Source of the DNA: a virus
Taxonomy: Duplodnaviria; Caudoviricetes
Length of the DNA: 64,000 nt
Virus record (IMG/VR): IMGVR_UViG_3300037067_007633
Span: 32,001-96,000 of that record
Reading direction: 5' to 3' (one strand)
Below, one piece after another: positions 53-12,070 of the stretch. Every line of letters begins with the position of its first letter. The stretch's first letter is position 1. The translations under genes and the position numbers were made by a program. Under the pieces are notes generated by a model, which was not told the origin of the DNA, made no database searches, and saw only the letters and a program-made list of their open reading frames with translations.

Positions 53-127
53 CTTTGCAATATAAACCCCACATCACCTTAATTGAGGGTGCGAAGCACC
101 CGAAACCCCACATACCCCAGTCGTGGT
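53..127. repeat. Two tandem copies of the early-region hairpin/AACCCCACAT element
   Basis: aaaccccacat at 64-74 and 103-113; hairpin gggtgc-GAA-gcaccc at 87-101. Confidence 0.85.
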
Positions 128-134
128 AGCAAGA

Positions 135-170
135 AAAAGAAAACCACCCTTTCGGGCGGTTCTCTTTCAG
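135..170 (-). terminator. Probable intrinsic terminator
   Basis: Imperfect GC stem around ccctttcggg with an A-rich run on + (U-tail on -), downstream of ORF 179-685. Confidence 0.6.
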
Positions 171-178
171 TTGTTGTT

Positions 179-685
179 TTACTTCTTTTCTCTTCCGTGA
201 TACGCTTCATACCAAAATACTTTACTCTCTAAGTTAGCTAACTTAGAAATAATAGGATGATTTAATGCATCATAAAACAAATCGCATTCATTTCTAAGTC
301 CTAGAGTATATAAACACAATAATACTCGTGTTACTCTTAGATAATTGTGGTTAAACTTTCCAAATATTTCATAAACTCTTTTATAGTTCACTATTAGAAT
401 TTCATTCCCGTCATATTGTAATCCACAAAACCACAACCATTTATAAAATGATCGTCTAATTTGATTTTTCAAATATTCATTGTTGTAAAAATCCCCAATA
501 TCTTCGTCAGTTAATAGTGGGGCGTTAGGATTAAAGCTAGAGGGGGACTTTAAGGGAAACATCCATTGAATATGGTTATGACACCCCTCCATTTCTTCTT
601 CGGTAAAACTCAAATAATCTTCTAAAGTTTTACCTTCAATATTTTTACCACCTGTAAGGAAATTAATAATGGGACTTAGAGACAT
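179..685 (-). CDS. Opioid growth factor receptor (OGFr_N)-like domain protein
   Basis: Motifs HNHIQWMFPL, S.FNPNAPLLT and NHNYLRVTRVL are typical of the OGFr conserved domain. Confidence 0.8.
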   Translation of the reverse strand: MSLSPIINFLTGGKNIEGKTLEDYLSFTEEEMEGCHNHIQWMFPLKSPSSFNPNAPLLTDEDIGDFYNNEYLKNQIRRSFYKWLWFCGLQYDGNEILIVNYKRVYEIFGKFNHNYLRVTRVLLCLYTLGLRNECDLFYDALNHPIISKLANLESKVFWYEAYHGREKK

Positions 686-728
686 TATATTTCCCTCCTA
701 TCAATTAATAGCAGTCTTAATTGTCATT

Positions 729-756
729 ATTATACCTCAAACAAACTTAAAAACAA
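729..756 (-). promoter_or_regulatory. Sigma70-like promoter TTGTTT-N16-TATAAT
   Basis: attata at 729-734 and aaacaa at 751-756, with the same 16-nt spacer as the other early promoters. Confidence 0.5.
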
Positions 757-803
757 CTGGTAAATTAACAAATTCCCCATAGTGTTTTATAGTTATATAA
801 AAG

Positions 804-886
804 TGCCGAAAGAGGGATTCGAACCCTCACTGCCTTACGGCAATCAGATTTTGAGTCTGACGTGTATTCCATTCCACCATTTCGGC
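804..886 (-). tRNA. tRNA-Leu(CAA)
   Basis: Reverse complement folds as a cloverleaf: GCCGAAA/TTTCGGC acceptor, TCAGA-CT-CAA-AA-TCTGA anticodon arm, long variable arm, GGTTCGAATCC T-loop; CCA not encoded. Confidence 0.95.
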
Positions 887-887
887 T

Positions 888-1058
888 TTATAGTGTTGGT
901 TTTTCAGGAACGGTAAAAGTTTGTTCTTTACAACACCTTGGGCACTTCCAAGTATATATTCCGGGTTCTAAGACTATATGACTTGGGGGATTATGTTCTG
1001 GATGAGTACAATGTTTGGGCTTATCCCATCCAAATTTCTTTACATTAATAAATGGCAT
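888..1058 (-). CDS. Small Cys/His-rich (Zn-ribbon-like) protein, 56 aa
   Basis: Translated by hand: MPFINVKKFGWDKPKHCTHPEHNPPSHIVLEPGIYTWKCPRCCKEQ...; GGAG upstream. Confidence 0.65.
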   Translation of the reverse strand: MPFINVKKFGWDKPKHCTHPEHNPPSHIVLEPGIYTWKCPRCCKEQTFTVPEKPTL

Positions 1059-1070
1059 AATGTTATTCTC

Positions 1071-1535
1071 CTAAGCAAAATCCGCAAATATTCCAAGATC
1101 GTCTTTCGCACTATCTAACGCCCGCTGAGCGTTTTTACATACTTCAATCTTATTCTTAATATCCTCAAGATTATAACTTGTTGCTTTGAATTGCTCATAT
1201 ACTTCCGTTAATATACCGCCATCTAATTTTCCAATATTTAGCGTTAATTCATAATACAAACAAGTACAAGAATTTCCAATCATTTCACTAACTTTAACTA
1301 TAAAAAATACACTATAGTTAGAGTCATGATAATATACATTTATTTCTGGTGAATGGGGGAAATCTGGAAGTAGACTTTTTACCTTGATAGTAAGTCCCCC
1401 AACCTTCTTTACTTTCTTCCCTATTAATTCCTTAAAAATAGGAATAAGGGTATTAGACAATTGTTCGGCATAAGCATTAGCACGATTGACGGCACGAATT
1501 TTAGCTTTTAGGTGTTCTTCGTTATAGTAGGACAT
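1071..1535 (-). CDS. Hypothetical protein
   Basis: 154-aa ORF, co-oriented with neighbours, start overlaps upstream stop (TAATG). Confidence 0.75.
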   Translation of the reverse strand: MSYYNEEHLKAKIRAVNRANAYAEQLSNTLIPIFKELIGKKVKKVGGLTIKVKSLLPDFPHSPEINVYYHDSNYSVFFIVKVSEMIGNSCTCLYYELTLNIGKLDGGILTEVYEQFKATSYNLEDIKNKIEVCKNAQRALDSAKDDLGIFADFA

Positions 1536-1696
1536 TATTGTTTCTTTCTAATACAACTAACAAATAAACAGAATACTGCAATCAACCAGTATTTTATAGG
1601 TTGTGGTCCCTTAAATATTTCTGCTAGTGTTACATGTGATGCTAACCAACACCCCATAATGAAGACAAAATCTTTTATATAAAATACAAATTTCAT
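1535..1696 (-). CDS. Small membrane protein, 53 aa
   Basis: Translated by hand; two hydrophobic segments; TAATG coupling to the next gene. Confidence 0.55.
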   Translation of the reverse strand: MKFVFYIKDFVFIMGCWLASHVTLAEIFKGPQPIKYWLIAVFCLFVSCIRKKQ

Positions 1697-1762
1697 ATTA
1701 ATTTCCTATATTAACACCAAAAACTAGACGTTCAATTTTACAAAGTTAGTTTCATTGCTAAG

Positions 1763-1837
1763 TAGGAGTGTAAGGAATCGAACCTTATTCAATCGTCCAC
1801 CTTATAAGAGTAACCATGATCCAACCATCCCACTCCC
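1763..1837 (-). tRNA. Atypical tRNA-Ile(UAU) or tRNA-like RNA
   Basis: GGGAGTG/CACTCCT acceptor, TAAGG-TTCGATT-CCTTA T-arm, CT-TAT-AA anticodon loop; GU-rich anticodon stem and short D-loop. Confidence 0.65.
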
Positions 1838-1968
1838 GTGTGTGTAGGTTCCCCCCTACACTAGGTATCCCCACTAACGTGGCGACTTTGATATTTTCTC
1901 ATACAAATATACTAGGACTCCACCTATTAATATGAGATATAGAATAATTCCGGTTTCTCCCATTAGGG

Positions 1969-3198
1969 TTAGGCGGCTTGCCCAACCAAACTTTCGATAG
2001 CTTTGACAGAAATATGTCTTGCCCTATTAAGCATTGCGTCCCATTGGCTTGTGGTCAAGTTTACAATGCTACCTGCTACTTCGTCCAGTCTAACCCATTC
2101 GTCGTCATCTTGAGTTTGACCAAACCTTGTAATGGCAGCTTGCAGACCAAACGCGGAAAATACTTCCTTACCAATTACATTTTGTTCATCAACAAACGAC
2201 CGCATTACTCCTTGAATTTGTTTTGAAGAAATACTATAATCTTGTGCAGTTTGGGCAAACAAGTTAAGAATGGGGGTGTCCCCTACCCCATAAGCCTTAA
2301 TTCCTAGCATACGTTGAATACCGATATCAAGAAGGGGAATTTGCTTTTCGAGATTATGCTTAATCTTTCCAAACAAATCTTCAAGATCAATATTACCCAT
2401 ATGTTTTTGTCTAATAGCAATTCCGCTCTCTTGGTCCCAAATACAGCCATTCATACAGATTGCACGAAACACACTAGGCTGCGAACTAATACGGCGAGTG
2501 CCGATTTCGGAATTACCGATAGACAACATTCCACCATAATCAGAATCCTTTTCTTCCCTAATAGTGTCGGGAATAAGGATATTGCCATAGATAGAGTCAG
2601 CGTCCCCCCTCCAATGGGATAGCATTCCACCTGGGATAAGCTTTTGGAGTGACTCTAATACCCAAGAGTTATTAACAATTGCATACTTAGAGGACAACAT
2701 TGCCCTCATAGTTCCATCTGTCCATGTACGAAAGAGACGGGGTTTTTCTTGGTCCACCCTATCGGGGGCAAACAAGGTGTTTTTCAATACTTGCACCACC
2801 ACCTCTGCATCCCTCCTATCTCGACTATATTCCATAGTCTTCTTAATAGGATGAAGTTTGGGTTCCCGCATTTGCTTGAGAAAAGTAGTAGAAACCCCCG
2901 CACAAGTGGCAATGTGCTGAAGAGTATGGTCGGTCGGAATATATTCTTCCCTATTAATCTTGTGCCGCAGAATAAAGCGGTCTTTACTGTCAATAGCTGG
3001 TTCCCACTCTCCGAGTGGGCTATCAGAATAATCCCTAATTTTCTGTTGATCATTAGCGATTTTCTCCATTCCCTTATCAAAAGGAATACACTTATCATAC
3101 CAGATCTTAGAGACATTACCAAACCCCTTAGAGGTAGCCAGCGGTTGGCTATTCAACACGGCATTCCCGGAAGTCCCCTTACCTTGAATTGCGGACAT
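1969..3198 (-). CDS. DUF932-like phage protein
   Basis: RAMLSSKYAIVNN and GNSEIG...VFRAICMNG motifs; GGAG SD; own promoter. Confidence 0.65.
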   Translation of the reverse strand: MSAIQGKGTSGNAVLNSQPLATSKGFGNVSKIWYDKCIPFDKGMEKIANDQQKIRDYSDSPLGEWEPAIDSKDRFILRHKINREEYIPTDHTLQHIATCAGVSTTFLKQMREPKLHPIKKTMEYSRDRRDAEVVVQVLKNTLFAPDRVDQEKPRLFRTWTDGTMRAMLSSKYAIVNNSWVLESLQKLIPGGMLSHWRGDADSIYGNILIPDTIREEKDSDYGGMLSIGNSEIGTRRISSQPSVFRAICMNGCIWDQESGIAIRQKHMGNIDLEDLFGKIKHNLEKQIPLLDIGIQRMLGIKAYGVGDTPILNLFAQTAQDYSISSKQIQGVMRSFVDEQNVIGKEVFSAFGLQAAITRFGQTQDDDEWVRLDEVAGSIVNLTTSQWDAMLNRARHISVKAIESLVGQAA

Positions 3199-3246
3199 TT
3201 TAGTGGTCTCCTTGTTTTTTCTGGTTTGGTTGCTCTCGATAAATAT

Positions 3247-3274
3247 ATTCTACCCTATATCTAGGAAATGTCAA
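3247..3274 (-). promoter_or_regulatory. Early promoter TTGACA-N16-TAGAAT
   Basis: attcta at 3247-3252 and tgtcaa at 3269-3274. Confidence 0.75.
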
Positions 3275-3309
3275 TTTCGCTTCGCGAAAATTTTTTCTAC
3301 CACCTTTGA

Positions 3310-3400
3310 GGATACACAGTATCCGAAACCCCACACCCCACACCCCTATTCCTTCCTATTTATTTTTTGGCGACAGCCAAACCCCACACCACCTAAAAGT
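3310..3400. repeat. Two tandem copies of the hairpin/AACCCCAC element
   Basis: ggatac-ACA-gtatcc followed by gaaaccccacac; tttggc-GACA-gccaaa followed by ccccacac. Confidence 0.85.
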
Positions 3401-3404
3401 TGAT

Positions 3405-3440
3405 AAAAGGCTGGAATGGGGGACTCGAACCCCCATCCCC
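3405..3440 (-). terminator. Terminator hairpin with a tRNA T-loop-like loop
   Basis: Minus strand reads GGATGGGGG-TTCGAGT-CCCCCATTCC-AGCCTTTT. Confidence 0.55.
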
Positions 3441-3453
3441 CTACTTGCCTATT

Positions 3454-4896
3454 TCATCCTATTAATTTTGCAGCAAAGTTAAACGCCCAATCTTGCAAAT
3501 CTCTAGACTGGTCTGTTGCCCCAGTAATATAATGGGAATATTCCTCAATAATAACCGTTCTTAGTTGTGGAGTATTAGCATCCCCTAACAGTGTATTTAG
3601 ATAAATTCCTCCATCACGATAAAACCCATAACAAGTAGAGTCAGCCGACATGATAGAAGAAAACCTAAAGGCGTCTGGCATAGGCTTTCCCGTATCCATT
3701 CCTACTTCTACAATCTTTGCCCAAATATCAATTGCTAATTCTTGCAATTCTAAACTTGCTGGGTATACCTCCCTTCCAAGTCTTTCATCTTGAGACAATA
3801 TCTTATCACTAGTTGTTACTTCGTAAGATTGGGCGGTTTCAAAAAACCCCTCAGGAACAATCAACGGAGTATATCCTTTGCGTCTGATAGTATCACTTTC
3901 AGAATTACAACTAATTACCCTATTTACTCCCAAAGTTTGCAACGCAAACTGCCAATTTTTAGACCTAGTTTCCTTTTCTTCTTTGTTTCCAATGTATTGG
4001 GCGGACATATAATATTTATCGAAAGAGTGTTCCCAATATTGAACTTCACTATCAAAGCTTCTTAATAGGATAGATAAATGTTTTGTGTCGGAACTAGCTA
4101 ACACTCGTGCAGACTCAGACTTTGCATTATACTCGTTGAGGTTGCGACTTTCGTCTACCTTAATGTCAAAGTTATAGTCGAAGAGGCTAGATAGATTAGT
4201 GTGTTCTAATTCCCCTACTCTTACGCCTCTTCGATAGAAGACTGGACCGGTTTTATCTCCCATATTTCTATGTTGCTTACGCAAAATGTTAGAAGGGATA
4301 TTTTCTGGTTCAGAGAAATGCATAAACCACTTACCAAGATCGACAAAGAAGCTACGTACAGCCGGTACACTAGCCGGAATAAATACTCTGGTGGTCCCCG
4401 TCTTTGCCCTTACTTGATTTTCGTTTACTAATTCAATAGTAACCCCCTCCCATGGATAGTCTACACTATTACCGTGGTGGTGGTTATACATAATAGTGTG
4501 GTCAATAGCATTGCTAACAAACTCACGGAGAGCCATTTCAACGTATGCCCAGTCGAGTTGACCATAGCCGATTGACCATAGTTTTTCTGTATAGTTGCGA
4601 GTTTTCCCCTCTTCGTCTTTCCCCGAATACCTAACTTGAACCCTATCATATTCGGTATTAGTAATATCACTAGTGAGGTTGTCTGTCACCGGTTGGAATT
4701 CTAACCTGAGATTACTACAAAAAACAATGGGAGTCACGTTGTTACGCATACACACGGAGATACTGTGTTTGTTTCCCGACCCAAATTGCCCAATAATATA
4801 AGGGAGGTTGCAATTTGTCTTTGAGGTTGCCCCTAATACTGTGAACCCCTCCACTGGGGCTATACCCGGATTTTCAATCTTCAAATACTGTAGCAT
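3454..4896 (-). CDS. GHKL-type ATPase with permuted motif order and a C-terminal zincin-like motif
   Basis: IENPG...LGATSK...IGQFGSGNK precedes ALREFVSNAID; C-terminal IIEEYSHYITGATD. Confidence 0.6.
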   Translation of the reverse strand: MLQYLKIENPGIAPVEGFTVLGATSKTNCNLPYIIGQFGSGNKHSISVCMRNNVTPIVFCSNLRLEFQPVTDNLTSDITNTEYDRVQVRYSGKDEEGKTRNYTEKLWSIGYGQLDWAYVEMALREFVSNAIDHTIMYNHHHGNSVDYPWEGVTIELVNENQVRAKTGTTRVFIPASVPAVRSFFVDLGKWFMHFSEPENIPSNILRKQHRNMGDKTGPVFYRRGVRVGELEHTNLSSLFDYNFDIKVDESRNLNEYNAKSESARVLASSDTKHLSILLRSFDSEVQYWEHSFDKYYMSAQYIGNKEEKETRSKNWQFALQTLGVNRVISCNSESDTIRRKGYTPLIVPEGFFETAQSYEVTTSDKILSQDERLGREVYPASLELQELAIDIWAKIVEVGMDTGKPMPDAFRFSSIMSADSTCYGFYRDGGIYLNTLLGDANTPQLRTVIIEEYSHYITGATDQSRDLQDWAFNFAAKLIG

Positions 4897-4935: not shown

Positions 4936-4963
4936 ATTATCGTCTATTTTTGCAAAATGTCAA
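4936..4963 (-). promoter_or_regulatory. Early promoter TTGACA-N16-GATAAT
   Basis: attatc at 4936-4941 and tgtcaa at 4958-4963, with an A-tract upstream. Confidence 0.8.
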
Positions 4964-4974
4964 CACGAATTTTT

Positions 4975-5046
4975 TTTCGCAAAGCGAAACCCCACATACC
5001 TCTGACGAGGTAGTAAATAAGGAGAAAGGGGGAAAATCCCCCTTTT
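4975..5046. repeat. Complete element: hairpin 1, core, hairpin 2, terminator
   Basis: tttcgc-AAA-gcgaaa, ccccacat, tacctc-tgac-gaggta, aaaggggga-aaa-tccccctttt. Confidence 0.9.
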
Positions 5047-5049
5047 ATT

Positions 5050-5218
5050 TTACCCAATCTTGTTATTTTTCCTTTCCCTTCTCTTCATAGCCCTATCAGT
5101 CCTTTTCTGAGAGGCTCCGCTTTTCCCATTTCCTCTTCCAGAACGCTTCCTGGAATAAACATTTCCACCCTCAATAAAAGCACAACCATCATAACTGTTT
5201 CGCCCGTAAGCTTTCATT
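5050..5218 (-). CDS. Small basic protein (start probably MKAYG)
   Basis: Lys/Arg-rich ORF; the longer 5271 start overlaps the repeat element. Confidence 0.5.
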
Positions 5219-5257
5219 TTATACCATGTCGTGATTAATGGAAAATTCCCTATTAAT

Positions 5258-5330
5258 TTGGCGTAAGCCAACCCAACATACCACTAATAAGGTAAGAAGA
5301 AAAGGAAAGAGCCCCACTTTAAGGGGCTCC
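5258..5330. repeat. Element copy with terminator
   Basis: ttggc-GTAA-gccaa, cccaacat, acc...ggt, gagcccc/ggggctc stem. Confidence 0.85.
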
Positions 5331-5348: not shown

Positions 5349-5675
5349 TCAGACTGTAACCTCGTTCTGCAAAGCAGGGATATCGTTCTGCGTAGCAGAC
5401 TCTTCCTGTTGCTTCCTCAAATCCATAATCAGCTTAGTCAACTCACTGACGTTGACCTTCGGGGTACGCTTGGATGCCTTCATATCCTTGAGGGGAATTC
5501 CCTCACGGAGTACATTACCGTGATCGTCGATACGCTGATTGCGGTAATTGTTGGCACGTCCAATGACGGCGTTGTACGTCATTCCCGTCTTTTCCATCAC
5601 CTCCTTAACGCTACTGGAAGTTTCCCAAATCGTCACAAACTCTACTTGACCGATACTCGACTTTCCTCGCGGCAT
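5349..5675 (-). CDS. Putative HTH DNA-binding protein (start MPRGK)
   Basis: GGAG SD before ATG at 5675; SVKEVMEKTGMTYNAVIGRA is HTH-like. Confidence 0.6.
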   Translation of the reverse strand: MPRGKSSIGQVEFVTIWETSSSVKEVMEKTGMTYNAVIGRANNYRNQRIDDHGNVLREGIPLKDMKASKRTPKVNVSELTKLIMDLRKQQEESATQNDIPALQNEVTV

Positions 5676-5809
5676 AATAAATCTCCTTTTCTCAAAAAAC
5701 CAGTTTAGTAACTCGCTCCGATAACACCATTTTACCTTATTCTTTTTAGAAGTCAAGGGGTTGGGAATTTTTTTTCTTCCGTTGTCCCTTTTCCCCTCCA
5801 ACAAATGTA

Positions 5810-5837
5810 ATTATCGGCTATTTTACTCAGAACACAA
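5810..5837 (-). promoter_or_regulatory. Early promoter TTGTGT-N16-GATAAT (TAGCCGATAAT)
   Basis: attatcggcta at 5810-5820. Confidence 0.6.
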
Positions 5838-5868
5838 CAACCAAATTGGAATTTTAGAAAGATATTTT

Positions 5869-5908
5869 TTGGCGTAAGCCAACCCCACATTCCCCATAGA
5901 TGGGGAAT
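5869..5908. repeat. Element copy
   Basis: ttggc-GTAA-gccaa, ccccacat, ttccccat/atggggaa. Confidence 0.85.
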
Positions 5909-5920
5909 CAATAGGAAAAC

Positions 5921-6050
5921 AAAAAACCCGGTCAAGCGTTGTCAATGCTTACCGGGGGCTTATATTTTTGACGGTTTGCCAATTCCGTCATACAGTCGTT
6001 ACATTATTACGAATAGAAAGGGCTATCTAACGACTTCCCTATTCTATAGG
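5921..6050 (-). ncRNA. Putative structured 3' RNA followed by a terminator
   Basis: Several complementary segments, including agtcgtta/taacgact and tgacgg/ccgtca. Confidence 0.35.
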
Positions 6051-6440: not shown

Positions 6441-6555
6441 ATTATCGTCTATTTCTGCGAAATGTCAACACGAATTTTTTTTGCGAAGCAAAACCCCACA
6501 TACCTCTAAAGAAGTATTAATAAGAGAAAAGGGGGAAGAATAACAACCCCCTCTT
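6441..6555. repeat. Promoter plus element plus terminator
   Basis: attatc at 6441, tgtcaa at 6463, ttttgc-GAA-gcaaaa, ccccacatacctct; nearly identical to 4936-5003. Confidence 0.9.
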
Positions 6556-7001: not shown

Positions 7002-7130
7002 TTATTCTACTCTATTTCTATCAGAAGTCAACCCGAATCTTGCATAGAACCGCAAAGCTCTCCAATACGCATACCATTTACGCTTCGCGTAAACAGAAGA
7101 GAACCGCCGCTTACGTTTTCCGTCCGGCAT
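7002..7130 (-). CDS. Small Arg/aromatic-rich peptide, 42 aa
   Basis: MPDGKRKRRFSSVYAKRKWYAYWRALRFYARFG...; AAGGAG SD; first ORF after a promoter. Confidence 0.55.
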   Translation of the reverse strand: MPDGKRKRRFSSVYAKRKWYAYWRALRFYARFGLTSDRNRVE

Positions 7131-7157: not shown

Positions 7158-7264
7158 ATTATGGGATATTTTTGCCAAATGTCAAGTCTATTTTTTGGCA
7201 TTAGCCAAACCCCACATACCCCTAGCGTGGTAAATAAGGAGAAAGGGGGACTTCTCCCCCTCCC
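7158..7264. repeat. Promoter plus element plus terminator
   Basis: attatg at 7158, tgtcaa at 7180, tttggc-ATTA-gccaaa, ccccacatacc, gggggacttctccccc. Confidence 0.9.
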
Positions 7265-7276
7265 TAGTCGTTTTTC

Positions 7277-7590: not shown

Positions 7591-7788
7591 CTAAATACCC
7601 TCACTGTCATAATCCCCTAACTTACACTCAGACGATACAAAACTTATACTATCCCTGTCATCATATTCTATCCTAATATCCTCTTTCGCTTGTTGTCTCT
7701 CTTCATCATTAGGAAAAATTCCAACCAGTCTTTTACTTGTAACTGGCTTGTTAGCGTCATAAACGAATAGTAGAAATAGCTCTTGCAT
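7591..7788 (-). CDS. Hypothetical protein
   Basis: 65-aa ORF with AGGGG upstream. Confidence 0.6.
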   Translation of the reverse strand: MQELFLLFVYDANKPVTSKRLVGIFPNDEERQQAKEDIRIEYDDRDSISFVSSECKLGDYDSEGI

Positions 7789-7818
7789 TTCTTTTCCCCT
7801 TTATATTTGTTCTTGTTA

Positions 7819-7931
7819 TAACAAAAACTTGGGACAGGTTTTTGACTGGCACCGTTTTTAATTATTACGGTTAACCCTGCATTCCATCCCTTAGTGTTTG
7901 CAGCCCGAATAACTCCCAGAGGTTTTTGTTA
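7819..7931 (-). ncRNA. Putative structured RNA or leader directly under an early promoter
   Basis: Closing stem taacaaaaac..ggga / tccc..gtttttgtta enclosing ctgca/tgcag and accgt/acggt stems. Confidence 0.45.
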
Positions 7932-7938
7932 CACATGC

Positions 7939-8085
7939 ATTATCGTCTATTCTCACCAAAAATCAATATGGAAAACCCCTTATTTATTTGCCATAGGCAA
8001 ACCCCACATACTCCTAAAGAAGTATATAAGGAAAAAATCCCGCCAATAGAGGGTAGCGAGTGAAACCCCCTCTATCAGCGGGTGA
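7939..8085. repeat. Promoter plus element plus terminator
   Basis: attatc at 7939, aatcaa at 7961, tttgcc-ATA-ggcaaa, ccccacatac, atagaggg/ccctctat stem. Confidence 0.85.
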
Positions 8086-8098
8086 CGATGGTTTTTTG

Positions 8099-8404
8099 CT
8101 ATACTACTTGTGCGGAGAATTCGTAAAGTTTGTTTTTTAGTTCGTTTGCAAAGCAGGAAAGTCTTTCGTTCTCATCCTCAATGATATCGACAATTTGCCA
8201 AGCAATACTTTCGGGAATCTTGAAGGTGATATCGTGCATTCCCCACGCCCATTCTGTATCGCCTCCCCGTTGTCCTTCAAATTCCCAAGTGCAAAGCACT
8301 AGTAGGTTATATAAATCATTACCGTGTCGATAACGATTTCCAATCCAGTTGATCGCTTTTTGTTCGGTAATGGTAAGGGTAAGGGTATACATTTTCATGA
8401 CCAA
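8099..8404 (-). CDS. Hypothetical protein (start uncertain, 8392-8404)
   Basis: About 100-aa ORF within a cassette unit. Confidence 0.7.
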   Translation of the reverse strand: MVMKMYTLTLTITEQKAINWIGNRYRHGNDLYNLLVLCTWEFEGQRGGDTEWAWGMHDITFKIPESIAWQIVDIIEDENERLSCFANELKNKLYEFSAQVV

Positions 8405-8625
8405 ACTGTAATGTCGTAATCGACATCCTTTTCAGAAGACATAGAGTAAAATCGCAATACGTACCCATAAGCAGTACATAAACCACATAGTCGGCGATAT
8501 CTTTCTTCCCCCAAATAATCCCTTTCGGATTCTTCAAACTCGCATTTTTCCACAAGAGTTATCATTGTGAGAGGTGGTTGTTTGCATTTAGGATCATACT
8601 TTTGGATGCGGCAGGTTTTTCTCAT
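8395..8625 (-). CDS. Hypothetical protein
   Basis: 76-aa ORF, first after a promoter, ATGA overlap with the next gene. Confidence 0.6.
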   Translation of the reverse strand: MRKTCRIQKYDPKCKQPPLTMITLVEKCEFEESERDYLGEERYRRLCGLCTAYGYVLRFYSMSSEKDVDYDITVWS

Positions 8626-8666
8626 GATTTTATCTCTTTGTTTTGTGGTTTGTTGTCACTAACAGT

Positions 8667-8772
8667 ATTATCGGATATTTTTTCAAATAGTCAACAACAA
8701 TTTTTCGACGTTAGTCGAACCCCACTTACCTCTAGCGGGGTAAATAATGAGAAAAGGGGGATTTCTCCCCTA
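8667..8772. repeat. Promoter plus element plus terminator
   Basis: attatc at 8667, agtcaa at 8689, ttcgac-GTTA-gtcgaa, ccccacttacc, agggggatttctccccct. Confidence 0.9.
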
Positions 8773-8776
8773 ATCT

Positions 8777-8965
8777 CTATTCCCAATAAATTCCCCCTAA
8801 AGCCCCTCTAACCTTAACCAAACCGCAATCTCTCATAATACTATCCCTAGATTGTCGGTTAGCATTCTGACGGTCAAGGCGGATACGTTTTTTTTGGCAG
8901 ACCTTACAAGGGGTTTCCTCATATCGGCATTTATCACAACGGATTTCTTTGCGGTTAGCCATCAT
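8777..8965 (-). CDS. Small Zn-finger basic protein
   Basis: CDKC...CKVC and C-terminal GLVKVRGALGGIYWE; start probably MMANRK. Confidence 0.6.
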   Translation of the reverse strand: MMANRKEIRCDKCRYEETPCKVCQKKRIRLDRQNANRQSRDSIMRDCGLVKVRGALGGIYWE

Positions 8966-8973
8966 TTTCCCAT

Positions 8974-9255
8974 TTAAGTTAGGTATCCCACCATTTCCCA
9001 TCTTCCACTGCCCATTCTATACCATGTATAGTATAGACGGGTATTTAACTCTACTCCAAAACGCTCTAATCGCTGAATAGACCTACCCTCATCATTGTAG
9101 CAACACACTGGCTCAACGGCAAAGGTAATGTCTACTTCTAGGAGGATACTCTGCACGCGACTGAGATAGTCTTGCGGGCTATTGTAATACCCCCCACTTG
9201 ACAATCTGGCGATTTCTTCCCTCATACAATCCCTAGATCCCACTTGATTCGTCAT
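8974..9255 (-). CDS. Hypothetical protein
   Basis: 93-aa ORF ending WYRMGSGRWEMVGYLT. Confidence 0.7.
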   Translation of the reverse strand: MTNQVGSRDCMREEIARLSSGGYYNSPQDYLSRVQSILLEVDITFAVEPVCCYNDEGRSIQRLERFGVELNTRLYYTWYRMGSGRWEMVGYLT

Positions 9256-9288
9256 TATGTTTCCCCTTGTGTTCGATTCACTAACTAT

Positions 9289-9376
9289 ATTGTCGGCTAT
9301 ATTTCGTAGAAGTCAATATGTTTTCCTTCCTATTTATTTCGCAAAGCGAAACCCCACATACCTCTAACGAGGTATG
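9289..9376. repeat. Promoter plus element
   Basis: attgtc at 9289, agtcaa at 9311, tttcgc-AAA-gcgaaa, ccccacat, catacctc-taac-gaggtatg. Confidence 0.9.
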
Positions 9377-9515
9377 AAATATGGAATTAGAGTATCCCCC
9401 AGTTAGGTATGTCAGGAAAAAATAATTAAAGAGACGTTATAGCGTCTATATTGTCGCCCTAATGACAGTTACAAGCGTTTTTTGAAAATTTCCATTGAAT
9501 CATAGGGGTTTTACC

Positions 9516-10055
9516 CTACTCTGGAATGTATCCAACCTTAATGGGAGCCCCCATAACCTGGGGACCAACCGGACTACCCAAAGTAGCCCTTAGCTCATCC
9601 CCCATTTTCCCTACTACTTCAATGGCTTGGAGGATTTCATCCCGTTCTTTCGGGTTAGCTAACCTAATCCACCCCTCAGAGAAGGTAATCTTTCCCGCCC
9701 GAACGAAAGCCCCCACAAAAGCGGTATCAACCTTTTTGGGGGTGATTTTGTCGTAGACCCTCTTCTTACGGGTTTTGCGACCCCCTACCCTTATCCCCGC
9801 TAGGGCATATAACCTTTTCAGGGCATCTTTATCCCCTTCTAGCGAAGCTAACACCTGTTCTTGTCTACTGTGTAGACAATTCTTAACCCCAATTCCCCTA
9901 CCATTTTCGGGGGAATGGTCGTTGTGGCTTGACAGCCTAATTTGAGGTTGTACCCCATAAACCCCCTCCAAAGAAGAGAGTTTGGACGAATCCCCGTTAT
10001 CAACCTTTGGGGACGGGGTGTCAGTATACGGGTTGTCGATGCGGCAAATAGGCAT
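9516..10055 (-). CDS. Hypothetical protein
   Basis: 179-aa ORF with AAGGGA upstream. Confidence 0.65.
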   Translation of the reverse strand: MPICRIDNPYTDTPSPKVDNGDSSKLSSLEGVYGVQPQIRLSSHNDHSPENGRGIGVKNCLHSRQEQVLASLEGDKDALKRLYALAGIRVGGRKTRKKRVYDKITPKKVDTAFVGAFVRAGKITFSEGWIRLANPKERDEILQAIEVVGKMGDELRATLGSPVGPQVMGAPIKVGYIPE

Positions 10056-10070
10056 TGTTTTTCCCTTAGG

Positions 10071-10083
10071 TTGGCGTAGCCAA
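10071..10083. repeat. Isolated mini-hairpin ttggc-GTA-gccaa
   Basis: Intergenic; same form as hairpin 1 of the element, but no core. Confidence 0.65.
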
Positions 10084-10088
10084 GCTAA

Positions 10089-10364
10089 TTAGATTGTACT
10101 TGCAAGGTATTCGTATACTTCTTTAGTGACCTTGGTAACCGATCCCCACCCCTCGATTTCATACAGGGCAACCTTTTGATCTGGTCCCCCAAACGGACCA
10201 ACACCGTTAGATCCCACGTATCCAGTCGTCTTGCGAATTACACTTGGTAGTATGATCTGACCAGACTTGTCGAGTGCCGTAAAAACAGCACTATAGACGC
10301 CAGACCTAATCAAACGTTTTGTAGCACGATACAGCTTACCGGAAATAGTAACGGTGTGAGACAT
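10089..10364 (-). CDS. Hypothetical protein (start probably MSHTV)
   Basis: AGGGA SD; promoter TTGCTC-N16-TACAAT at 10389-10416. Confidence 0.65.
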   Translation of the reverse strand: MSHTVTISGKLYRATKRLIRSGVYSAVFTALDKSGQIILPSVIRKTTGYVGSNGVGPFGGPDQKVALYEIEGWGSVTKVTKEVYEYLASTI

Positions 10365-10423
10365 TTTGTTTTCCCTAGTCAAAAGTGTATTGTAACCTAT
10401 TTTTTGCAAAGAGCAACCACAAA

Positions 10424-10437
10424 TTGGCGTTAGCCAA
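10424..10437. repeat. Mini-hairpin ttggc-GTTA-gccaa upstream of a promoter
   Basis: Same architecture as hairpin 1; core truncated. Confidence 0.7.
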
Positions 10438-10842
10438 CTACTTTGTCCGACCCCCCAACCTTCCGGTTTTCACACAGAATTCAGCGGGGGCTCTGCTAGA
10501 TCGCGGTCCCCTTCCTAGTGAGGGGTTCGACTTGACCAGACCCTCAAACAGGGTGTCATCCACTAGTTCTCCGTTAGAGAACGGGGAAGGGATAGACTCG
10601 TCCTCATCCTCTAGGTTGTGGTTAATTGCTACCCTCTCGTAGTACGCTTTGAGGCGGTCAATCCGCCCCTCTTCCTTGGGGACACAAGCATACTTGTGAC
10701 CCCTATTAGGGCACCCGGTGGTGTGCCCTACCGATCCCTCAATAGTATCCTCTTGTCCGGGTTTCCCCCCACCCTCTTCAGGGGTTAGGTAGACGACACG
10801 GACGACCTCGAAACAGTCTGACGGCAAGTGTAAGTCTAACAC
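10438..10842 (-). CDS. Hypothetical protein
   Basis: 134-aa ORF, GTG start with AAGGAG. Confidence 0.55.
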   Translation of the reverse strand: MLDLHLPSDCFEVVRVVYLTPEEGGGKPGQEDTIEGSVGHTTGCPNRGHKYACVPKEEGRIDRLKAYYERVAINHNLEDEDESIPSPFSNGELVDDTLFEGLVKSNPSLGRGPRSSRAPAEFCVKTGRLGGRTK

Positions 10843-10898
10843 TGGAGACTCCTTGTTGTGTTACAGGAAGAGAACAGTATACGGTATGCGGGACATAC

Positions 10899-11183
10899 TC
10901 AAACGTCATATCCACCATATTGGTGGACTACGATGTAATTGCGGGTACGGCGGACAATCACGGGTTTGCGATAGTGGAGTGTGCCAACAGTACCAGACAA
11001 CGAGGTTAGCTGATAGAGTGTAAACATCTGCCGTAAGCAATGCACTCGTTTGATCCAACTCTTACGGGGAAATAGTACTCTTCTCATGAAGCTTGAACCC
11101 AATTCCTTGTCTAACTCTACCACATCTTCCCTAACACCCGTAAACGAAACGTGTTTCTGAATACCTTTCATATCACACCCCAT
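10899..11183 (-). CDS. Hypothetical protein
   Basis: About 90-aa ORF at the upstream edge of the early region. Confidence 0.55.
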   Translation of the reverse strand: MGCDMKGIQKHVSFTGVREDVVELDKELGSSFMRRVLFPRKSWIKRVHCLRQMFTLYQLTSLSGTVGTLHYRKPVIVRRTRNYIVVHQYGGYDV

Positions 11184-11569
11184 AAGGTAAGAGAAGGATA
11201 GTTTTTCCCGATGTCCGAATCTTAGGAAAATGAAATAGTTGGGGCAACCCCCCGATTAGAAAATATATCAAAAGTGTCGGGAAAATGCGTGCCAACTATG
11301 ATTTTAGGTATGAGGTAGACAGTTAGTTTTTTGGATACTAAGTAGCCCCCATTAGTGGCAATCGGTATGTTTGGGGGATGAGGGGTTTGATGGGGTTAGT
11401 TATGGTAAGGGGGTTTTTCTAACCAAAAGTAAGTACCGCTATAGGTGCGGGAAATGGCGGGGGGATGAATTTATAGGATTGATATAACTAACTTTATAGA
11501 ACCCCCTTTGGTCATCCTTGTAGCTACAACTTTCTCTATTAGCTTACGTTGTGGTTGTTTGCTACTACA

Positions 11570-12034
11570 TTAGTTAAAGAATTCTTTTATATCTTCATAT
11601 AAATTTATCTTTGTATTATCTAATCCATTTTTATATGCTTTCAGAATTTTGTCTTCACAACTTTTATTTACGAAGTAAATAACATAATTAGTATAATTAA
11701 ATTGGGGGAATAATTGGGAAAAATAATTAAGTTGATTACCTATATTAACACTATTACTTAGATATATCCTATTCTTACAGCGTAGCTGTAACAAAAAAAT
11801 CCCACCAATTCCGTTCATTTGTTCTATTCTAACTTCCTTGATAGCCCCTATCTTCATCATTCCACATTTTCTAGCTAATCTTTTAATAGAGGATTCACTT
11901 AAATTAATTATTTTAGATAGTTGTTTAACAGACATATAGGGGAAATTTTCCCGAACCAGTTTTAAATCTTCCGGTTGAATTTGTCTTCTTTGTTTTCTAA
12001 CTTTACCATCTTTGCTTTGTTTGGGTCTTGACAT
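11570..12034 (-). CDS. HTH protein with a degenerate GIY-YIG-like C-terminus
   Basis: MSVKQLSKIINLSESSIKRLA HTH; GIFLLQ...RIYLSNSVNIGNQ; start probably MSRPK. Confidence 0.5.
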   Translation of the reverse strand: MSRPKQSKDGKVRKQRRQIQPEDLKLVRENFPYMSVKQLSKIINLSESSIKRLARKCGMMKIGAIKEVRIEQMNGIGGIFLLQLRCKNRIYLSNSVNIGNQLNYFSQLFPQFNYTNYVIYFVNKSCEDKILKAYKNGLDNTKINLYEDIKEFFN

Positions 12035-12056
12035 AATAATTTCCCATTTCATTATA

Positions 12057-12070
12057 TTGGCGATAGCCAA
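12057..12070. repeat. Mini-hairpin ttggc-GATA-gccaa next to a terminator-like stem
   Basis: Same form as hairpin 1. Confidence 0.6.

What the first reader, a model, noticed from the sequence alone, without database searches (positions are those of the whole stretch)
53..12070. Gene-cassette array delimited by a covarying DNA mini-hairpin plus AACCCCACAT element
Seen: 12 copies of an AACCCCACAT-like core (64, 103, 3326, 3379, 4987, 5270, 5881, 6491, 7207, 7999, 8718, 9349). In the complete copies the core lies between the terminator of one unit and the promoter of the next. Eleven cores are immediately preceded by a perfect 5-6 bp hairpin, and three more such hairpins occur alone (10071, 10424, 12057). 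Stems differ (gggtgc, ggatac, ttggc, tttcgc, ttttgc, tttgcc, ttcgac) but always pair. On the + strand every one of these loops is closed by C-G and reads R-N-(N)-A: GAA, ACA, GACA, AAA, GTAA, ATTA, ATA, GTTA, GTA, GATA. One extra hairpin at 3275-3289 has the opposite polarity. A second, variable hairpin often follows the core. Established: C(GNA)G and C(GNNA)G loops form exceptionally stable DNA hairpins, N4 virion RNA polymerase reads such hairpins on the template strand, and PeSL promoter-stem-loop cassettes shuffle genes in T4-type phages. Inference: most loops are not RNA GNRA or UNCG, and + is the template strand here, so structure is likely selected at the DNA level (ssDNA or cruciform). 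It could serve as an activator or virion-RNAP site, a nick or priming site, or a recombination site for cassette exchange.
Basis: partly seen in the sequence, partly recalled or inferred. Interest (0 to 1): 0.88.

Follow-up and report, generated by a model that had tools for sequence, protein, structure and literature searches.

The report
Phage early-gene cassettes with DNA mini-hairpins
An uncultured 160-kb phage separates about ten small early-gene units with one repeated terminator-to-promoter cassette, a known phage design (PeSL), which here also carries a conserved G-rich box and a tiny, sequence-variable but always perfectly paired DNA hairpin whose role is untested.

Summary
The core AACCCCACAT (sense strand ATGTGGGGTT) has 12 copies, all at window 65-9359 and all in one orientation. 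Eleven abut a perfect 5-6 bp hairpin and three such hairpins stand alone. All 14 are closed by C-G and have R..A loops on the + (template) strand.

The stretch is the early-gene array of a phage that uses host RNA polymerase. Each junction reads: intrinsic terminator, imperfect palindrome, box, mini-hairpin, A-tract, then TTGACA-16-GATAAT. This is the PeSL design of T4-type phages plus a lineage-specific upstream module.

I found three related lineages that carry the same box. Together they show 18 different hairpin stems, only one G.T pair, and gene units shuffled at the junctions. The box sits about 22, 33, 42 or 52 bp upstream of the -35 hexamer, which keeps it on one helical face.

The held 85% of the genome shows no T7-like polymerase match (a weak negative), no protein near virion-polymerase size, and no Y1 HUH transposase or tyrosine/serine recombinase. 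It does encode a sigma factor.

Best reading: a composite regulatory and shuffling cassette. The box is probably a protein site and the hairpin probably acts at the DNA level; both functions are inferred. The scan has found other PeSL-like arrays, but not this element. Verdict: new variant of a known kind.

The parts
9289..9447 (-). Junction cassette c9350. Terminator 9432-9447; palindrome 9359-9374; box 9350-9359; mini-hairpin 9337-9351 (TTTCGC/TTT/GCGAAA on the sense strand); AATAAATAGGAAGG insert; -35 at 9311-9316; -10 at 9289-9294.
8667..8771 (-). Junction cassette c8718. Terminator 8755-8771; palindrome 8727-8742; box 8718-8727 (AAGTGGGGTT); mini-hairpin 8704-8719 (TTCGAC/TAAC/GTCGAA); -35 at 8689-8694; -10 at 8667-8672.
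7939..8084 (-). Junction cassette c8000. Long terminator 8039-8084; palindrome 8009-8024 (one G.T); box 8000-8009; mini-hairpin 7987-8001 (TTTGCC/TAT/GGCAAA); -35 at 7961-7966; -10 at 7939-7944.
   Evidence: The terminator is 90% identical to L186:1446-1508, which lies behind a different gene.
7158..7265 (-). Junction cassette c7208. Terminator 7240-7265; CCAC-N4-GGGG 7217-7232; box 7208-7217; mini-hairpin 7194-7209 (TTTGGC/TAAT/GCCAAA); -35 at 7180-7185; -10 at 7158-7163.
6441..6551 (-). Junction cassette c6492. Terminator 6534-6551; palindrome 6501-6516 (one G.T); box 6492-6501; mini-hairpin 6479-6493 (TTTTGC/TTC/GCAAAA); -35 at 6463-6468; -10 at 6441-6446.
5729..5962 (-). Junction cassette c5881. 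Terminator about 5925-5962; 8-bp palindrome 5889-5908; box 5881-5890; mini-hairpin 5869-5882 (TTGGC/TTAC/GCCAA); weak promoter with -10 at 5810-5815; second promoter at 5756-5729.
5216..5330 (-). Junction cassette c5270. Terminator 5308-5330; degenerate box 5270-5279 (ATGTTGGGTT); mini-hairpin 5258-5271 (TTGGC/TTAC/GCCAA); AATTAATAGGGAA motif; doubtful promoter at 5244-5216.
4936..5045 (-). Junction cassette c4988. Bidirectional terminator 5025-5045; perfect palindrome 4997-5012; box 4988-4997; mini-hairpin 4975-4989 (TTTCGC/TTT/GCGAAA); A8 tract; -35 at 4958-4963; -10 at 4936-4941.
   Evidence: z-scores -4.5 and -3.5 as single-stranded DNA
3247..3439 (-). Double junction in front of the DUF932 gene. 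Truncated tRNA T-arm hairpin 3413-3439; box 3380-3389 with hairpin 3366-3381; AATAAATAGGAAGGAAT; triple G-run box 3327-3343 with type II hairpin 3310-3324 (GGATAC/TGT/GTATCC); reversed hairpin 3275-3289; -35 at 3269-3274; -10 at 3247-3252.
40..163 (-). Array end, with no promoter behind it. Terminator 142-163; box 104-113 with type II hairpin 87-101 (GGGTGC/TTC/GCACCC); box 65-74 with a decayed hairpin; AATTAATAGGAAGGAAT. It abuts a convergent + strand gene.
10071..10083 (.). Lone mini-hairpin TTGGC/GTA/GCCAA (+ strand). It lies between two cistrons, 3 nt before the ribosome-binding site of the gene at 10055-9516.
10415..10437 (.). Lone mini-hairpin at 10424-10437, next to a degenerate core-like AACCACAAAT in swapped order, upstream of a TACAAT promoter-like site.
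12057..12103 (-). Terminator at 12076-12103, followed directly by the lone mini-hairpin at 12057-12070 and a TATAAT.
7077..7093 (.). A second hairpin of reversed polarity (GAA loop on the sense strand), inside a 42-codon ORF and about 45 bp upstream of the promoter at 7031-7004.
5349..5675 (-). 108-aa early protein with an HTH-like N-terminal half. It is conserved in L186, L187 and L188. It is a candidate box-binding regulator, not a shown one.
12529..13110 (+). Phage sigma70-family factor gene, the first gene of the divergent late arm.
   Evidence: Sigma70_r2, 26.4 bits, above the family cut-off

Best explanation
Window 1-12,400 is the early (host-takeover) gene array of an uncultured tailed phage that relies on host RNA polymerase. 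It consists of at least ten self-contained units of one to three small ORFan genes on the minus strand.

Every junction carries one paralogous composite cassette of about 110-150 bp. Its order is: intrinsic terminator, TTATTTAC, an imperfect palindrome, the box GGGG-N-ATGTGGGGTT, a perfect mini-palindrome of variable sequence (C-G closure, 3-4 nt centre), an A-tract, and a TTGACA-16-GATAAT promoter. This is the PeSL (promoter-early stem-loop) design plus a lineage-specific upstream module.

Shown:
- the anatomy of the cassette;
- its confinement to the array;
- covariation of the hairpin within this phage and between phages;
- shuffling of units and of junction modules between relatives.

Inferred:
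(a) The box is a duplex-DNA protein site, for an activator or a roadblock/insulator. It would be centred near -62, -72, -82 or -92 if transcription starts about 7 nt after the -10 hexamer. The start is not mapped.
(b) The mini-palindrome acts as DNA, most likely as a mini-cruciform extruded under supercoiling in the zone where an UP element would sit. It would tune or insulate the promoter.
(c) The conserved cassette supplies the homology at which units recombine, without a dedicated recombinase.
For: Anatomy and promoters:
- Eleven of the top-scoring promoter-like hits on the minus strand share a 16-nt spacer and the conserved AAATAGNCGATAAT.
- Terminator-like sites number 27, against 10.9 +/- 3.5 in shuffles.

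Gene cargo and transcription machinery:
- Cargo genes are mostly ORFans.
- The phage encodes a sigma factor.
- No candidate phage RNA polymerase was found: the largest ORFs are a tape measure (1,608 aa) and two unassigned virion-module ORFs (1,462 and 1,265 aa); smaller large ORFs include RNR, RIIA, a helicase/primase-like protein and DnaE.

Confinement and covariation.

Relatives carrying the same box were found through array proteins. They are L152/L186, L187 and L153:
- 42 cores in all, 20 followed by a perfect hairpin, with 18 distinct 5' arms.
- Of the imperfect hairpins, one has a G.T pair and four have other mismatches.
- The terminal loop positions fall only in the classes T..T/A..A or T..C/G..A in all perfect hairpins.
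- Polarity flips in L187, which fits a symmetric duplex or cruciform.

Position of the hairpins:
- They lie between terminator and promoter.
- Some directly follow terminator T-runs: window 12057, L186:1509, L153:835 and 2296.

Spacing from core to -35 is 21-24 bp (12 cases), 32-35 (4), 42 (2) and 52 (1). The conservative phase test gives P about 0.013.

Shuffling:
- Gene order differs from L186 by whole or partial units.
- A terminator module that is 90% identical follows different genes in the two phages.
- More distant relatives L132/L134 use different cassettes, and about 9 of 12 of their mosaic breakpoints lie at those cassettes.

PeSL definition and experiments: PMC2839356 and PMC4122927.
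Against: - No transcript ends are known, so the promoters, terminators and the -62 position are predictions.
- No binding protein is identified. The 108-aa HTH-like candidate has only non-significant fold matches (best E 0.23).
- 17 of 42 cores in the four lineages lack a GC-containing hairpin, so the hairpin is dispensable for whatever the box does.
- The element persists at array ends with no promoter behind it (window 104/65, L186:13880, L187:4295/4364). That fits insulation better than activation.
- The B-form spacing from core to -35 is better conserved than the spacing left after hairpin extrusion. This argues that the hairpin is not extruded when the box communicates with the promoter.
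- 5 of the 14 loops start with A, not G. The mini-hairpin review reports that replacing the loop G with A in a tetraloop mini-hairpin markedly raised SSB binding; by extension, A-first loops here may be less stable (PMC13037366).
- Stems of 5-6 bp are short for extrusion outside the N4 precedent.
- The more distant relative L188 has diverged boxes that are not phased with its promoters.
- Paralogues and orthologues are not independent, so the P values are optimistic.
Confidence: 0.55

Rival explanations
1. RNA-level element. Read-through or longer primary transcripts include the palindrome, box and mini-hairpin. These would act as a processing site, a 3' stabiliser or a back-up terminator. The lone hairpin at 10071 would be an intercistronic stabiliser.
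For: - The sense-strand palindrome next to the core carries two G.T pairs that would be G.U in RNA (copies 6492 and 8000).
- U..U first mismatches are favourable in RNA loops.
- The hairpin at 10071-10083 lies inside a predicted polycistronic transcript.
- Nearest-neighbour energies do not separate the two strands for triloops.
Against: - Every element lies downstream of a good intrinsic terminator and upstream of the predicted start.
- None of the loops is UNCG, and only GUAA on the antisense strand fits GNRA.
- About 170 stem pairs include one G.T against four other mismatches, where RNA helices usually show many G.U.
- Polarity flips in L187.
- No Rfam family matches.
Confidence: 0.2
2. No selected function for the hairpin. 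It would be a quasi-palindrome kept perfect by intramolecular template-switch correction during replication, or the remnant of short stem-loops inherited with the duplicated cassette. Only the box, terminator and promoter would matter.
For: - The hairpin is missing or decayed next to 17-22 of 42 cores in relatives, and several are replaced by AT-only weak palindromes.
- Template-switch repair changes both arms in one event, which mimics compensatory evolution (established knowledge of quasipalindrome mutagenesis).
- The outer T-A pairs come for free from the GGGGTT box and the A-tract.
Against: - Window 1-12,200 holds 28 C-G-closed hairpins against 4.5 expected.
- The invariant C-G closure, and terminal loop positions restricted to two of six possible classes across 18 different stems, are not predicted by a purely mutational process.
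- The same kind of hairpin recurs at three different positions: after the box, after terminator T-runs, and beside the -35.
Confidence: 0.12
3. Site for a structure-specific enzyme that actively moves cassettes or nicks DNA. It would be like an integron attC, an IS200/IS605 or REP/RAYT element, a nick site or a priming site. Each strand would read 5'-stable hairpin-core-3'.
For: - Each strand carries a hairpin 5' of a conserved 9-10 nt core, as at HUH nick sites. Here the GNNA-type loop is on the sense strand for the neighbouring palindrome and the R..A loop is on the template strand for the mini-hairpin.
- L153 holds inverted copies of the core flanking a mini-hairpin, as in a miniature inverted-repeat element.
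- Units are shuffled between relatives.
- Several array proteins have no known fold or family.
Against: - The genome has no Y1 HUH transposase, tyrosine recombinase or serine recombinase, and the controls for all three searches did ring.
- The cassettes carry their own promoters and terminators, unlike integron cassettes.
- The two large conserved array proteins (the 480-aa family and DUF932) are far more widespread than the element.
- Many gene differences lie inside units.
- Homologous recombination at repeats of 100 bp or more is enough to explain the shuffling, as proposed for PeSLs.
Confidence: 0.08
4. N4-type promoter. The template-strand mini-hairpin would be recognised as extruded single-stranded DNA by a phage or virion RNA polymerase that starts a few nucleotides downstream in the A-tract.
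For: - The hairpin geometry (5-7 bp stem, 3-4 nt loop, sheared R.A on the template strand, transcription-start side on the 5' side of the template hairpin) matches the N4 early promoters as reviewed in PMC4496689 and PMC13037366.
- The lone hairpins at 10071 and 12057 sit where a promoter is needed but no good -35 exists.
Against: - The family search for a T7-like polymerase found nothing, although its control was silent, so this is a weak negative.
- The largest protein is a 1,608-aa tape measure with only tail-protein domains.
- The other large proteins with a family match are ordinary replication or nucleotide enzymes.
- Strong sigma70-type promoters follow 9 of the junctions, and the phage encodes a sigma factor.
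- Loop polarity flips in L187, and many cores lack hairpins.
- Caveat: 15% of the genome is missing.
Confidence: 0.04

Closest known systems
PeSL (promoter-early stem-loop) composite terminator/promoter cassettes of T4-type phages RB49/phi1, PST and nt-1 (Arbiol et al. 2010, PMC2839356; Comeau et al. 2014, PMC4122927)
   Same: - A repeated, conserved intergenic motif of about 100 bp.
- It holds a G-run/C-run stem-loop terminator, an AT-rich upstream tract and a near-consensus sigma70-type early promoter.
- The copies are concentrated in a region of small ORFans.
- Relatives differ by insertion, loss and re-association of units at these motifs.
   Different: - This phage was not placed in the T4 group: no T4 core-gene set was looked for; its replicative polymerase is DnaE-type and its virion genes gave no assignable match.
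- About 45 bp are added between terminator and AT tract: an imperfect palindrome, a conserved G-rich box at helically phased distances, and a second, covarying mini-hairpin with C-G closure and R..A/Y..T loop ends.
- Minicircles and promoter or terminator activity have not been tested here.
Coliphage N4 early promoters read by virion RNA polymerase (reviewed in PMC4496689)
   Same: - A small hairpin (5-7 bp stem) with a purine-rich loop closed by C-G and a sheared R.A pair on the template strand.
- Stems that vary as long as pairing is kept.
- Location in front of early genes.
- A documented precedent that such short hairpins extrude at physiological supercoiling.
   Different: - No virion polymerase was found.
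- Host-type promoters lie 8-20 bp downstream of the hairpin.
- Loops are 3 or 4 nt and start with A in a third of cases.
- Polarity is not fixed among relatives.
- The conserved sequence lies upstream of the hairpin rather than within it.
Extraordinarily stable DNA mini-hairpins GCGNAGC / GCGNNAGC (Hirao and co-workers; review PMC13037366)
   Same: - C-G closure with G..A terminal loop bases in 9 of 14 window hairpins.
- Exact GCGAAGC at 90-96 and 6482-6488.
- Occurrence at initiation regions of phage DNA, as noted for G4, St-1, alpha3, ssiA and N4.
   Different: - Five loops are A..A type; the review reports raised SSB binding when the loop G of a tetraloop mini-hairpin was changed to A.
- The second pair is not always G-C.
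- The context here is double-stranded DNA upstream of promoters, not a single-stranded origin.
Class I activator-dependent promoters (for example CRP sites near -61.5, -71.5, -82.5 and -92.5). Stated from general knowledge of bacterial transcription, not from a tool.
   Same: - The box lies at distances that differ by about one helical turn. It would be centred near -62, -72, -82 or -92 if the start is 7 nt after the -10 hexamer.
- An A-tract lies between the box and the -35 hexamer.
   Different: - No activator is known.
- The box is not a CRP-type palindrome.
- The start sites are unmapped.
- The promoters already have near-consensus -35 hexamers and close-to-consensus -10 hexamers (GATAAT, TAGAAT), so they should not need activation.
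Integron attC sites and REP/RAYT or IS200/IS605-derived palindromic elements
   Same: Structure-conserved, sequence-variable palindromes with a short conserved flank that punctuate arrays of small genes.
   Different: - The genome has no integrase, no Y1 transposase and no resolvase.
- The units carry their own promoters and terminators.
- The hairpins are far shorter than attC and have no extrahelical bases.

Membership tests
PeSL cassettes | Sigma70-like early promoter with an AT-rich tract upstream of the -35 hexamer | tested here: met
   TTGACA/TTGACT-16-GATAAT/TAGAAT at seven junctions, with an A-tract or AATAAATAGG upstream.
PeSL cassettes | A stem-loop able to terminate upstream transcription, inside the same conserved intergenic motif | tested here: met
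   G5/C5-type stems followed by T-runs, 20-70 nt before each box; 27 terminator-like sites against 10.9 in shuffles. Activity was not assayed.
PeSL cassettes | Many copies clustered in a plastic region of small ORFans | tested here: met
   10 junctions in 9.4 kb. 20 of 25 array proteins have no family match.
PeSL cassettes | Insertions, deletions and replacements between relatives that end in the motif | tested here: inconclusive
   Against L186 (about 70% amino-acid identity), units and junction modules are re-associated. Many differences lie inside units, and no near-identical pair of phages was available. In L132 versus L134, about 9 of 12 breakpoints lie at their own cassettes.
PeSL cassettes | Formation of minicircles by recombination between neighbouring motifs | not testable with these tools
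   Needs inverse PCR on infected cells or virions.
N4-type virion-polymerase promoters | Template-strand hairpin with a 5-7 bp stem, a 3-nt purine-rich loop and a sheared G.A pair | tested here: inconclusive
   14 of 14 hairpins have R..A on the template strand. However, 7 have 4-nt loops and 5 start with A, and polarity flips in L187.
N4-type virion-polymerase promoters | A giant virion RNA polymerase of the T7-like family encoded by the phage | tested here: not met
   No PF00940 match, though the control was silent. The largest ORF is 1,608 aa and is a tape measure; other large ORFs with a family match are assigned to other functions. The genome is 85% complete.
N4-type virion-polymerase promoters | Transcription start about 11 nt downstream of the loop centre | not testable with these tools
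   No transcript data.
Integron gene cassettes / attC | An IntI-type tyrosine recombinase, and promoterless cassettes ending in attC sites of 57-141 bp | tested here: not met
   No PF00589 match, with the control ringing in 14 of 14 genomes. Every unit has its own promoter. The hairpins are 13-17 nt.
IS200/IS605-derived or REP/RAYT palindromic elements | A Y1 HUH transposase in the genome | tested here: not met
   No PF01797 match, with the control ringing in 6 genomes.
DNA mini-hairpin (GCGNAGC/GCGNNAGC) | C-G closing pair with G first and A last in a 3-4 nt loop | tested here: inconclusive
   Closure is C-G in 14 of 14 and the last base is A in 14 of 14. The first base is G in 9 and A in 5. 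Thermal stability was not measured, and the nearest-neighbour model does not separate the strands.
Class I activator site | Site on one helical face, centred near -61.5 plus n turns | tested here: inconclusive
   Spacings are 21-24, 32-35, 42 and 52 bp, with phase test P about 0.013. Start sites and the binding protein are unknown. L188 is not phased.

The most novel reading that the evidence does not exclude
Host-polymerase early promoters of a phage are governed by a mini-cruciform. A 13-17 bp palindrome with N4-like sheared-purine loops sits in the zone where an UP element would sit. It would extrude with the negative supercoiling made by its own promoter or by gyrase. Extrusion would switch contact between an upstream box-bound protein and the promoter, or would insulate neighbouring units. 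That would make a DNA-structure switch a general device outside the N4 virion-polymerase system. The same stalled or extruded hairpin next to a conserved 10-nt landing pad would be the hot spot at which early-gene units are exchanged.
Probability: 0.3. Interest if true: 0.8.

Novelty: new variant of a known kind. Interest (0 to 1): 0.55.

Why it matters
Short DNA hairpins that work as regulatory structures in double-stranded genomes are documented mainly for the N4 virion polymerase. Here the same kind of hairpin (C-G closure, sheared-purine loop ends, freely varying stem) recurs about 30 times in four phage lineages. In the held sequence no phage RNA polymerase was found, and the hairpins lie next to host-type promoters.

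The system is compact and easy to test. One 110-bp cassette cloned before a reporter allows stem-breaking, compensatory, loop-flip, box and spacing mutants. It can also be probed on supercoiled plasmids.

The case also extends PeSL-style modular shuffling to a phage group that was not placed among the T4-type phages. It gives a conserved box and a candidate small HTH-like protein for study of early-gene control in an uncultured phage clade.

Tried and rejected
- Exact-pattern scans. A 14-mer scan, and core plus A-tract plus TTGA(C) patterns, were run on viral contigs and metagenome contigs. They gave only chance, single, mostly coding hits. A double-core scan found unrelated G-rich repeats, such as tandem GGTGTGGGGTT in L179 and a different GC-rich hairpin repeat in L162.
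- Megablast of the array against GenBank phages found nothing.
- The search for related loci with the 480-aa protein found nothing. The relatives came only from the protein-cluster searches.
- Relatives found through the 669-aa late-arm protein (L128-L135) share the GC-rich early arm. They carry different cassettes and show no enrichment of mini-hairpins.
- Relatives with the 480-aa family at about 45-55% identity (L154, L155, L156, L157, L158) lack the element.
- The motif ATTAATAGG is not a promoter: 51 copies, 31 on the sense strand and 20 on the antisense strand, many of them in coding DNA.
- Rfam gave no match.
- The 480-aa and 409-aa proteins have no solved relatives and no NCBIfam match.
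- Nearest-neighbour DNA and RNA energies cannot separate the strands for triloops.
- A tape-measure-fused polymerase, as in Thermus phage P23-45 (a lead from earlier notes), is not supported. The 1,607-aa protein matches only tape-measure and minor-tail families.
- The fold search for the 108-aa protein gave no significant match. The best E was 0.23, and the top rows were mostly winged-helix regulators.
- The genome search could not reach the full L186 record.

Full report
**Context**

The window is bases 32,001-96,000 of a 160,177-bp IMG/VR virus record that is linear and estimated 85% complete. Overall G+C is 30%. Window 1-12,000 and about 2 kb to its left form an island of 40-43% G+C.

Genes in the island run on the minus strand. 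From 12,529 a divergent plus-strand arm begins with a sigma70-family factor gene and continues with terminase, tape measure and other virion genes.

Large proteins elsewhere in the genome are ribonucleotide reductase, RIIA, a helicase/primase-like protein and a split DnaE-type polymerase. The six-frame family search for a T7-like polymerase found nothing, although its control genomes were also silent, so that negative is weak. No protein exceeds 1,608 aa.

- On the plus strand there are 8 exact and 4 one-mismatch copies of AACCCCACAT, all between 65 and 9,359.
- The exact 10-mer occurs nowhere else in the genome, and always in one orientation.
- Eleven cores abut a perfect 5-6 bp hairpin. Three more hairpins stand alone at 10071, 10424 and 12057. 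Two have the opposite loop polarity: 3275, and 7077, which is new.
- All 14 forward hairpins are closed by C-G and have loops that start with a purine and end with A on the plus strand.

A census of perfect hairpins (stem of at least 5 bp, loop of 3-4 nt) gives these counts for window 1-12,200:

| Class | Observed | First-order Markov simulations |
|---|---|---|
| C-G-closed hairpins | 28 | 4.5 +/- 2.1 |
| of these, R..A loop on the plus strand | 19 | 0.54 +/- 0.73 (maximum 3 of 200) |

In the remaining 148 kb there are 72 C-G-closed hairpins. Their loop types are mixed and the two strands are balanced.

A covariance model built from five copies finds the other four canonical copies (E <= 2.4e-8), finds weak matches to the degenerate ones, and finds nothing elsewhere in the genome. 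On the nine-copy alignment all 52 cells pair. Three of six pairs show changes on both sides and none shows a one-sided change. No shuffle out of 500 reaches the observed values, and slid registers pair at 40-54%.

**Anatomy on the coding strand**

Each junction reads, from 5' to 3':

1. An intrinsic terminator, often a G5/C5 stem with a T-run.
2. TTATTTAC.
3. An imperfect palindrome, TACCNC-N4-GNGGTA.
4. The box ATGTGGGGTT.
5. The mini-hairpin. Its outer T-A pairs come from the box and from the following A-tract.
6. An A-tract, or in some copies an extra AATAAATAGGAAGG segment.
7. TTGACA, a 16-nt spacer that ends in the conserved AAATAGNC, and GATAAT.
8. Ribosome-binding site and start codon.

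Ten such junctions separate units of one to three small genes. Nearly all of these genes lack a family assignment.

The array ends at 104/65 with a double element and no promoter, facing a convergent gene and a plus-strand tRNA. The neighbouring palindrome is poorly kept: 2 of 8 copies are perfect and the others carry G.T, A.G or C.A. Its 5' arm can also pair with GTGG of the box. I treat it as part of an extended box region rather than as a proven hairpin.

**Relatives**

Exact-pattern scans of viral and metagenome collections gave only chance hits. Relatives were found through two array proteins, a 480-aa protein of a large unnamed family and a DUF932 protein, and through the contigs that encode their closest homologues.

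Three lineages carry the same box in the same orientation in their own arrays:

| Lineage | Identity of the array protein used | Note |
|---|---|---|
| L152/L186 | about 70% | from a 108.6-kb contig |
| L187 | 73% | |
| L153 | 52% | |

- Over the four lineages I count 42 cores with consensus GGGG-N-RWGTGGGGTT. Twenty are followed by a perfect GC-containing hairpin, one by a hairpin with a G.T pair, four by hairpins with another mismatch, and 17 by none.
- The 5' arms take 18 different sequences.
- There are two hairpin types. In type I the stem starts in the TT of the box and runs into an A-tract. In type II the order is box, C, a GGRYRC-type stem, then TCAA.
- Mini-hairpins also sit directly after terminator T-runs (window 12057; L186:1509; L153:835 and 2296).
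- Loop ends fall only in the classes T..T/A..A and T..C/G..A. Most have the purines on the template strand, but three type I copies in L187 and one in L153 are flipped.
- In L153 each 280-bp intergenic region holds three to six cores and one inverted copy.
- L188 (58% identity) has a diverged box, CCAC-TAAT-GGGGTATATGGTATA, and no mini-hairpins.
- More distant relatives found through a late-arm protein (L132, L134, L135) share the GC-rich early arm. Their cassettes are different and they show no excess of mini-hairpins.

So the refutation criterion "relatives show no covariation" is not met. At the same time, the hairpin is an optional partner of a more widely conserved box.

**Spacing**

The distance from the last T of the box to the -35 hexamer is:

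| Source | Distance (bp) |
|---|---|
| Window | 22, 23, 23, 24, 33, 33, 52 |
| L186 | 21, 22, 23, 24, 32, 35, 42, 42 |
| L153 | 21, 21, 21, 22 |

The length classes differ by about one helical turn. A conservative test that uses one value per class gives P about 0.013. If transcription starts 7 nt after the -10 hexamer, the box is centred near -62, -72, -82 and -92. The mini-hairpin and A-tract then fill about -59 to -40, the zone of UP elements and of alpha-subunit contacts. This is inference, because the starts are unmapped.

Within the 22-24 class, the total B-form distance is steadier than the distance left after removing the hairpin. That speaks against the hairpin being extruded at the moment the box acts on the promoter.

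**Shuffling**

Most array genes have homologues in L186, in largely the same order. The differences are:

- One gene (8398-8099) sits in a different unit.
- Six window genes are missing from L186.
- L186 has at least five genes that the window lacks.

Junction modules are re-associated between the two phages. The terminator at 8094-8032 is 90% identical to L186:1446-1508, which follows a different gene. The box and promoter of the 9350 junction match the L186 junction in front of yet another gene.

The gene next to the terminator tends to be kept, and the gene just behind the promoter tends to vary. So one crossover often lies in the cassette and the other inside the unit.

In the more distant pair L132/L134 the backbone is collinear at 93% identity while the array is mosaic. 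About 9 of 12 breakpoints lie within 25 bp of their own repeated cassettes.

This is the behaviour described for PeSLs. Those papers demonstrated promoter and terminator activity and minicircles, and mapped crossovers in or next to the stem-loop (PMC2839356 and PMC4122927).

**At which level does the hairpin act?**

For DNA:
- It lies between the terminator and the predicted start.
- It also occurs just after terminator T-runs.
- There is one G.T pair in about 170 stem pairs, against four other mismatches.
- The loop-end rule corresponds to a sheared purine.A pair, as in DNA mini-hairpins and N4 promoter hairpins (PMC13037366 and PMC4496689).
- The loops are not UNCG or GNRA.
- The polarity flips are tolerated, as expected for a symmetric duplex or cruciform and not for a strand-specific reader.

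Against, or uncertain:
- Five loops start with A. The mini-hairpin review links a G-to-A change at this loop position (shown for a tetraloop) to raised SSB binding, so A-first loops here may be less stable.
- Energies do not separate the strands.
- One lone hairpin lies inside a transcript.
- A mutational route, quasi-palindrome correction, can mimic compensation.

The genome shows no Y1 HUH transposase, no tyrosine recombinase and no serine recombinase, and the controls for these searches did ring. No virion-polymerase-sized protein is present. No known RNA family matches the element.

A 108-aa array protein (5675-5349) is conserved in L186, L187 and L188. It has a helix-turn-helix-like N-terminal half. 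Its predicted model shows three helices and a beta hairpin (pLDDT 72). The fold matches are not significant: the best E is 0.23, and the top rows are mostly winged-helix regulators. It is a candidate box binder and nothing more.

**Verdict**

This is a real and statistically strong feature. It is best filed as a new variant of the PeSL kind of composite terminator/promoter cassette, with an added box-plus-mini-hairpin module. I rate a DNA-level role for the hairpin more likely than an RNA-level one, but its mechanism is unproven. Earlier notes of this scan report PeSL-like arrays in other phages, but none with this element.

Noticed in passing
window 1-12000 and about 2 kb to its left; L132, L134, L135:1-6500; L186:1-11000: The early arm is 10-15 points richer in G+C (40-46%) than the rest of the genome (25-35%). 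This holds in this phage and in all relatives seen, whatever cassette they use.
   Followed up: partly
whole genome, for example window 50, 1428, 2958, 3466, 5257: The 9-mer ATTAATAGG (with variant AATAATAGG) occurs 51 times on both strands, in coding and non-coding DNA. A longer form, AAT(A/T)AATAGGAAGGAAT, is a module of several junction cassettes here and in L186 and L187. It is not a promoter, and its meaning is unknown.
   Followed up: partly
window 3413-3439 (minus strand): The 3' half of a tRNA gene (T-arm plus acceptor strand) with no 5' half. ARAGORN does not call it. It occupies the terminator position of the 480-aa gene; the same junction in L186 has an ordinary terminator.
   Followed up: no
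window 11184-11569: A 386-bp non-coding stretch near the switch of strand and GC skew. It contains plus-strand G-rich repeats (GAGGGGTTTGATGGGGTTAG) that resemble the box in the opposite orientation. It could be an origin or control region.
   Followed up: no
window 16354-19677: The 1,107-aa large terminase matches terminase profiles in two separated parts, with a helicase-like or unknown segment between them. This could be an intein or an inserted domain.
   Followed up: no
L153:100-420, 785-1130, 2230-2720, 4200-4525: Intergenic regions of about 280 bp are built from three to six forward boxes, one inverted box copy that flanks a mini-hairpin, a C6/G6 hairpin and a promoter. This is a much more elaborate version of the same element.
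   Followed up: partly
L132 and L134:1-7000: Related phages use a different repeated cassette. It has a conserved palindrome CCTTAC-N6-GTAAGG about 21 bp upstream of TTGACA, several CGTAAGT...ACTTACG hairpins and a GC-rich segment.
   Followed up: partly
window 803-886 and 1762-1837; genome about 31500-31580: tRNA-Leu(CAA) and tRNA-Ile(TAT) lie inside the last early unit. A further tRNA lies on the opposite strand just beyond the array end.
   Followed up: no
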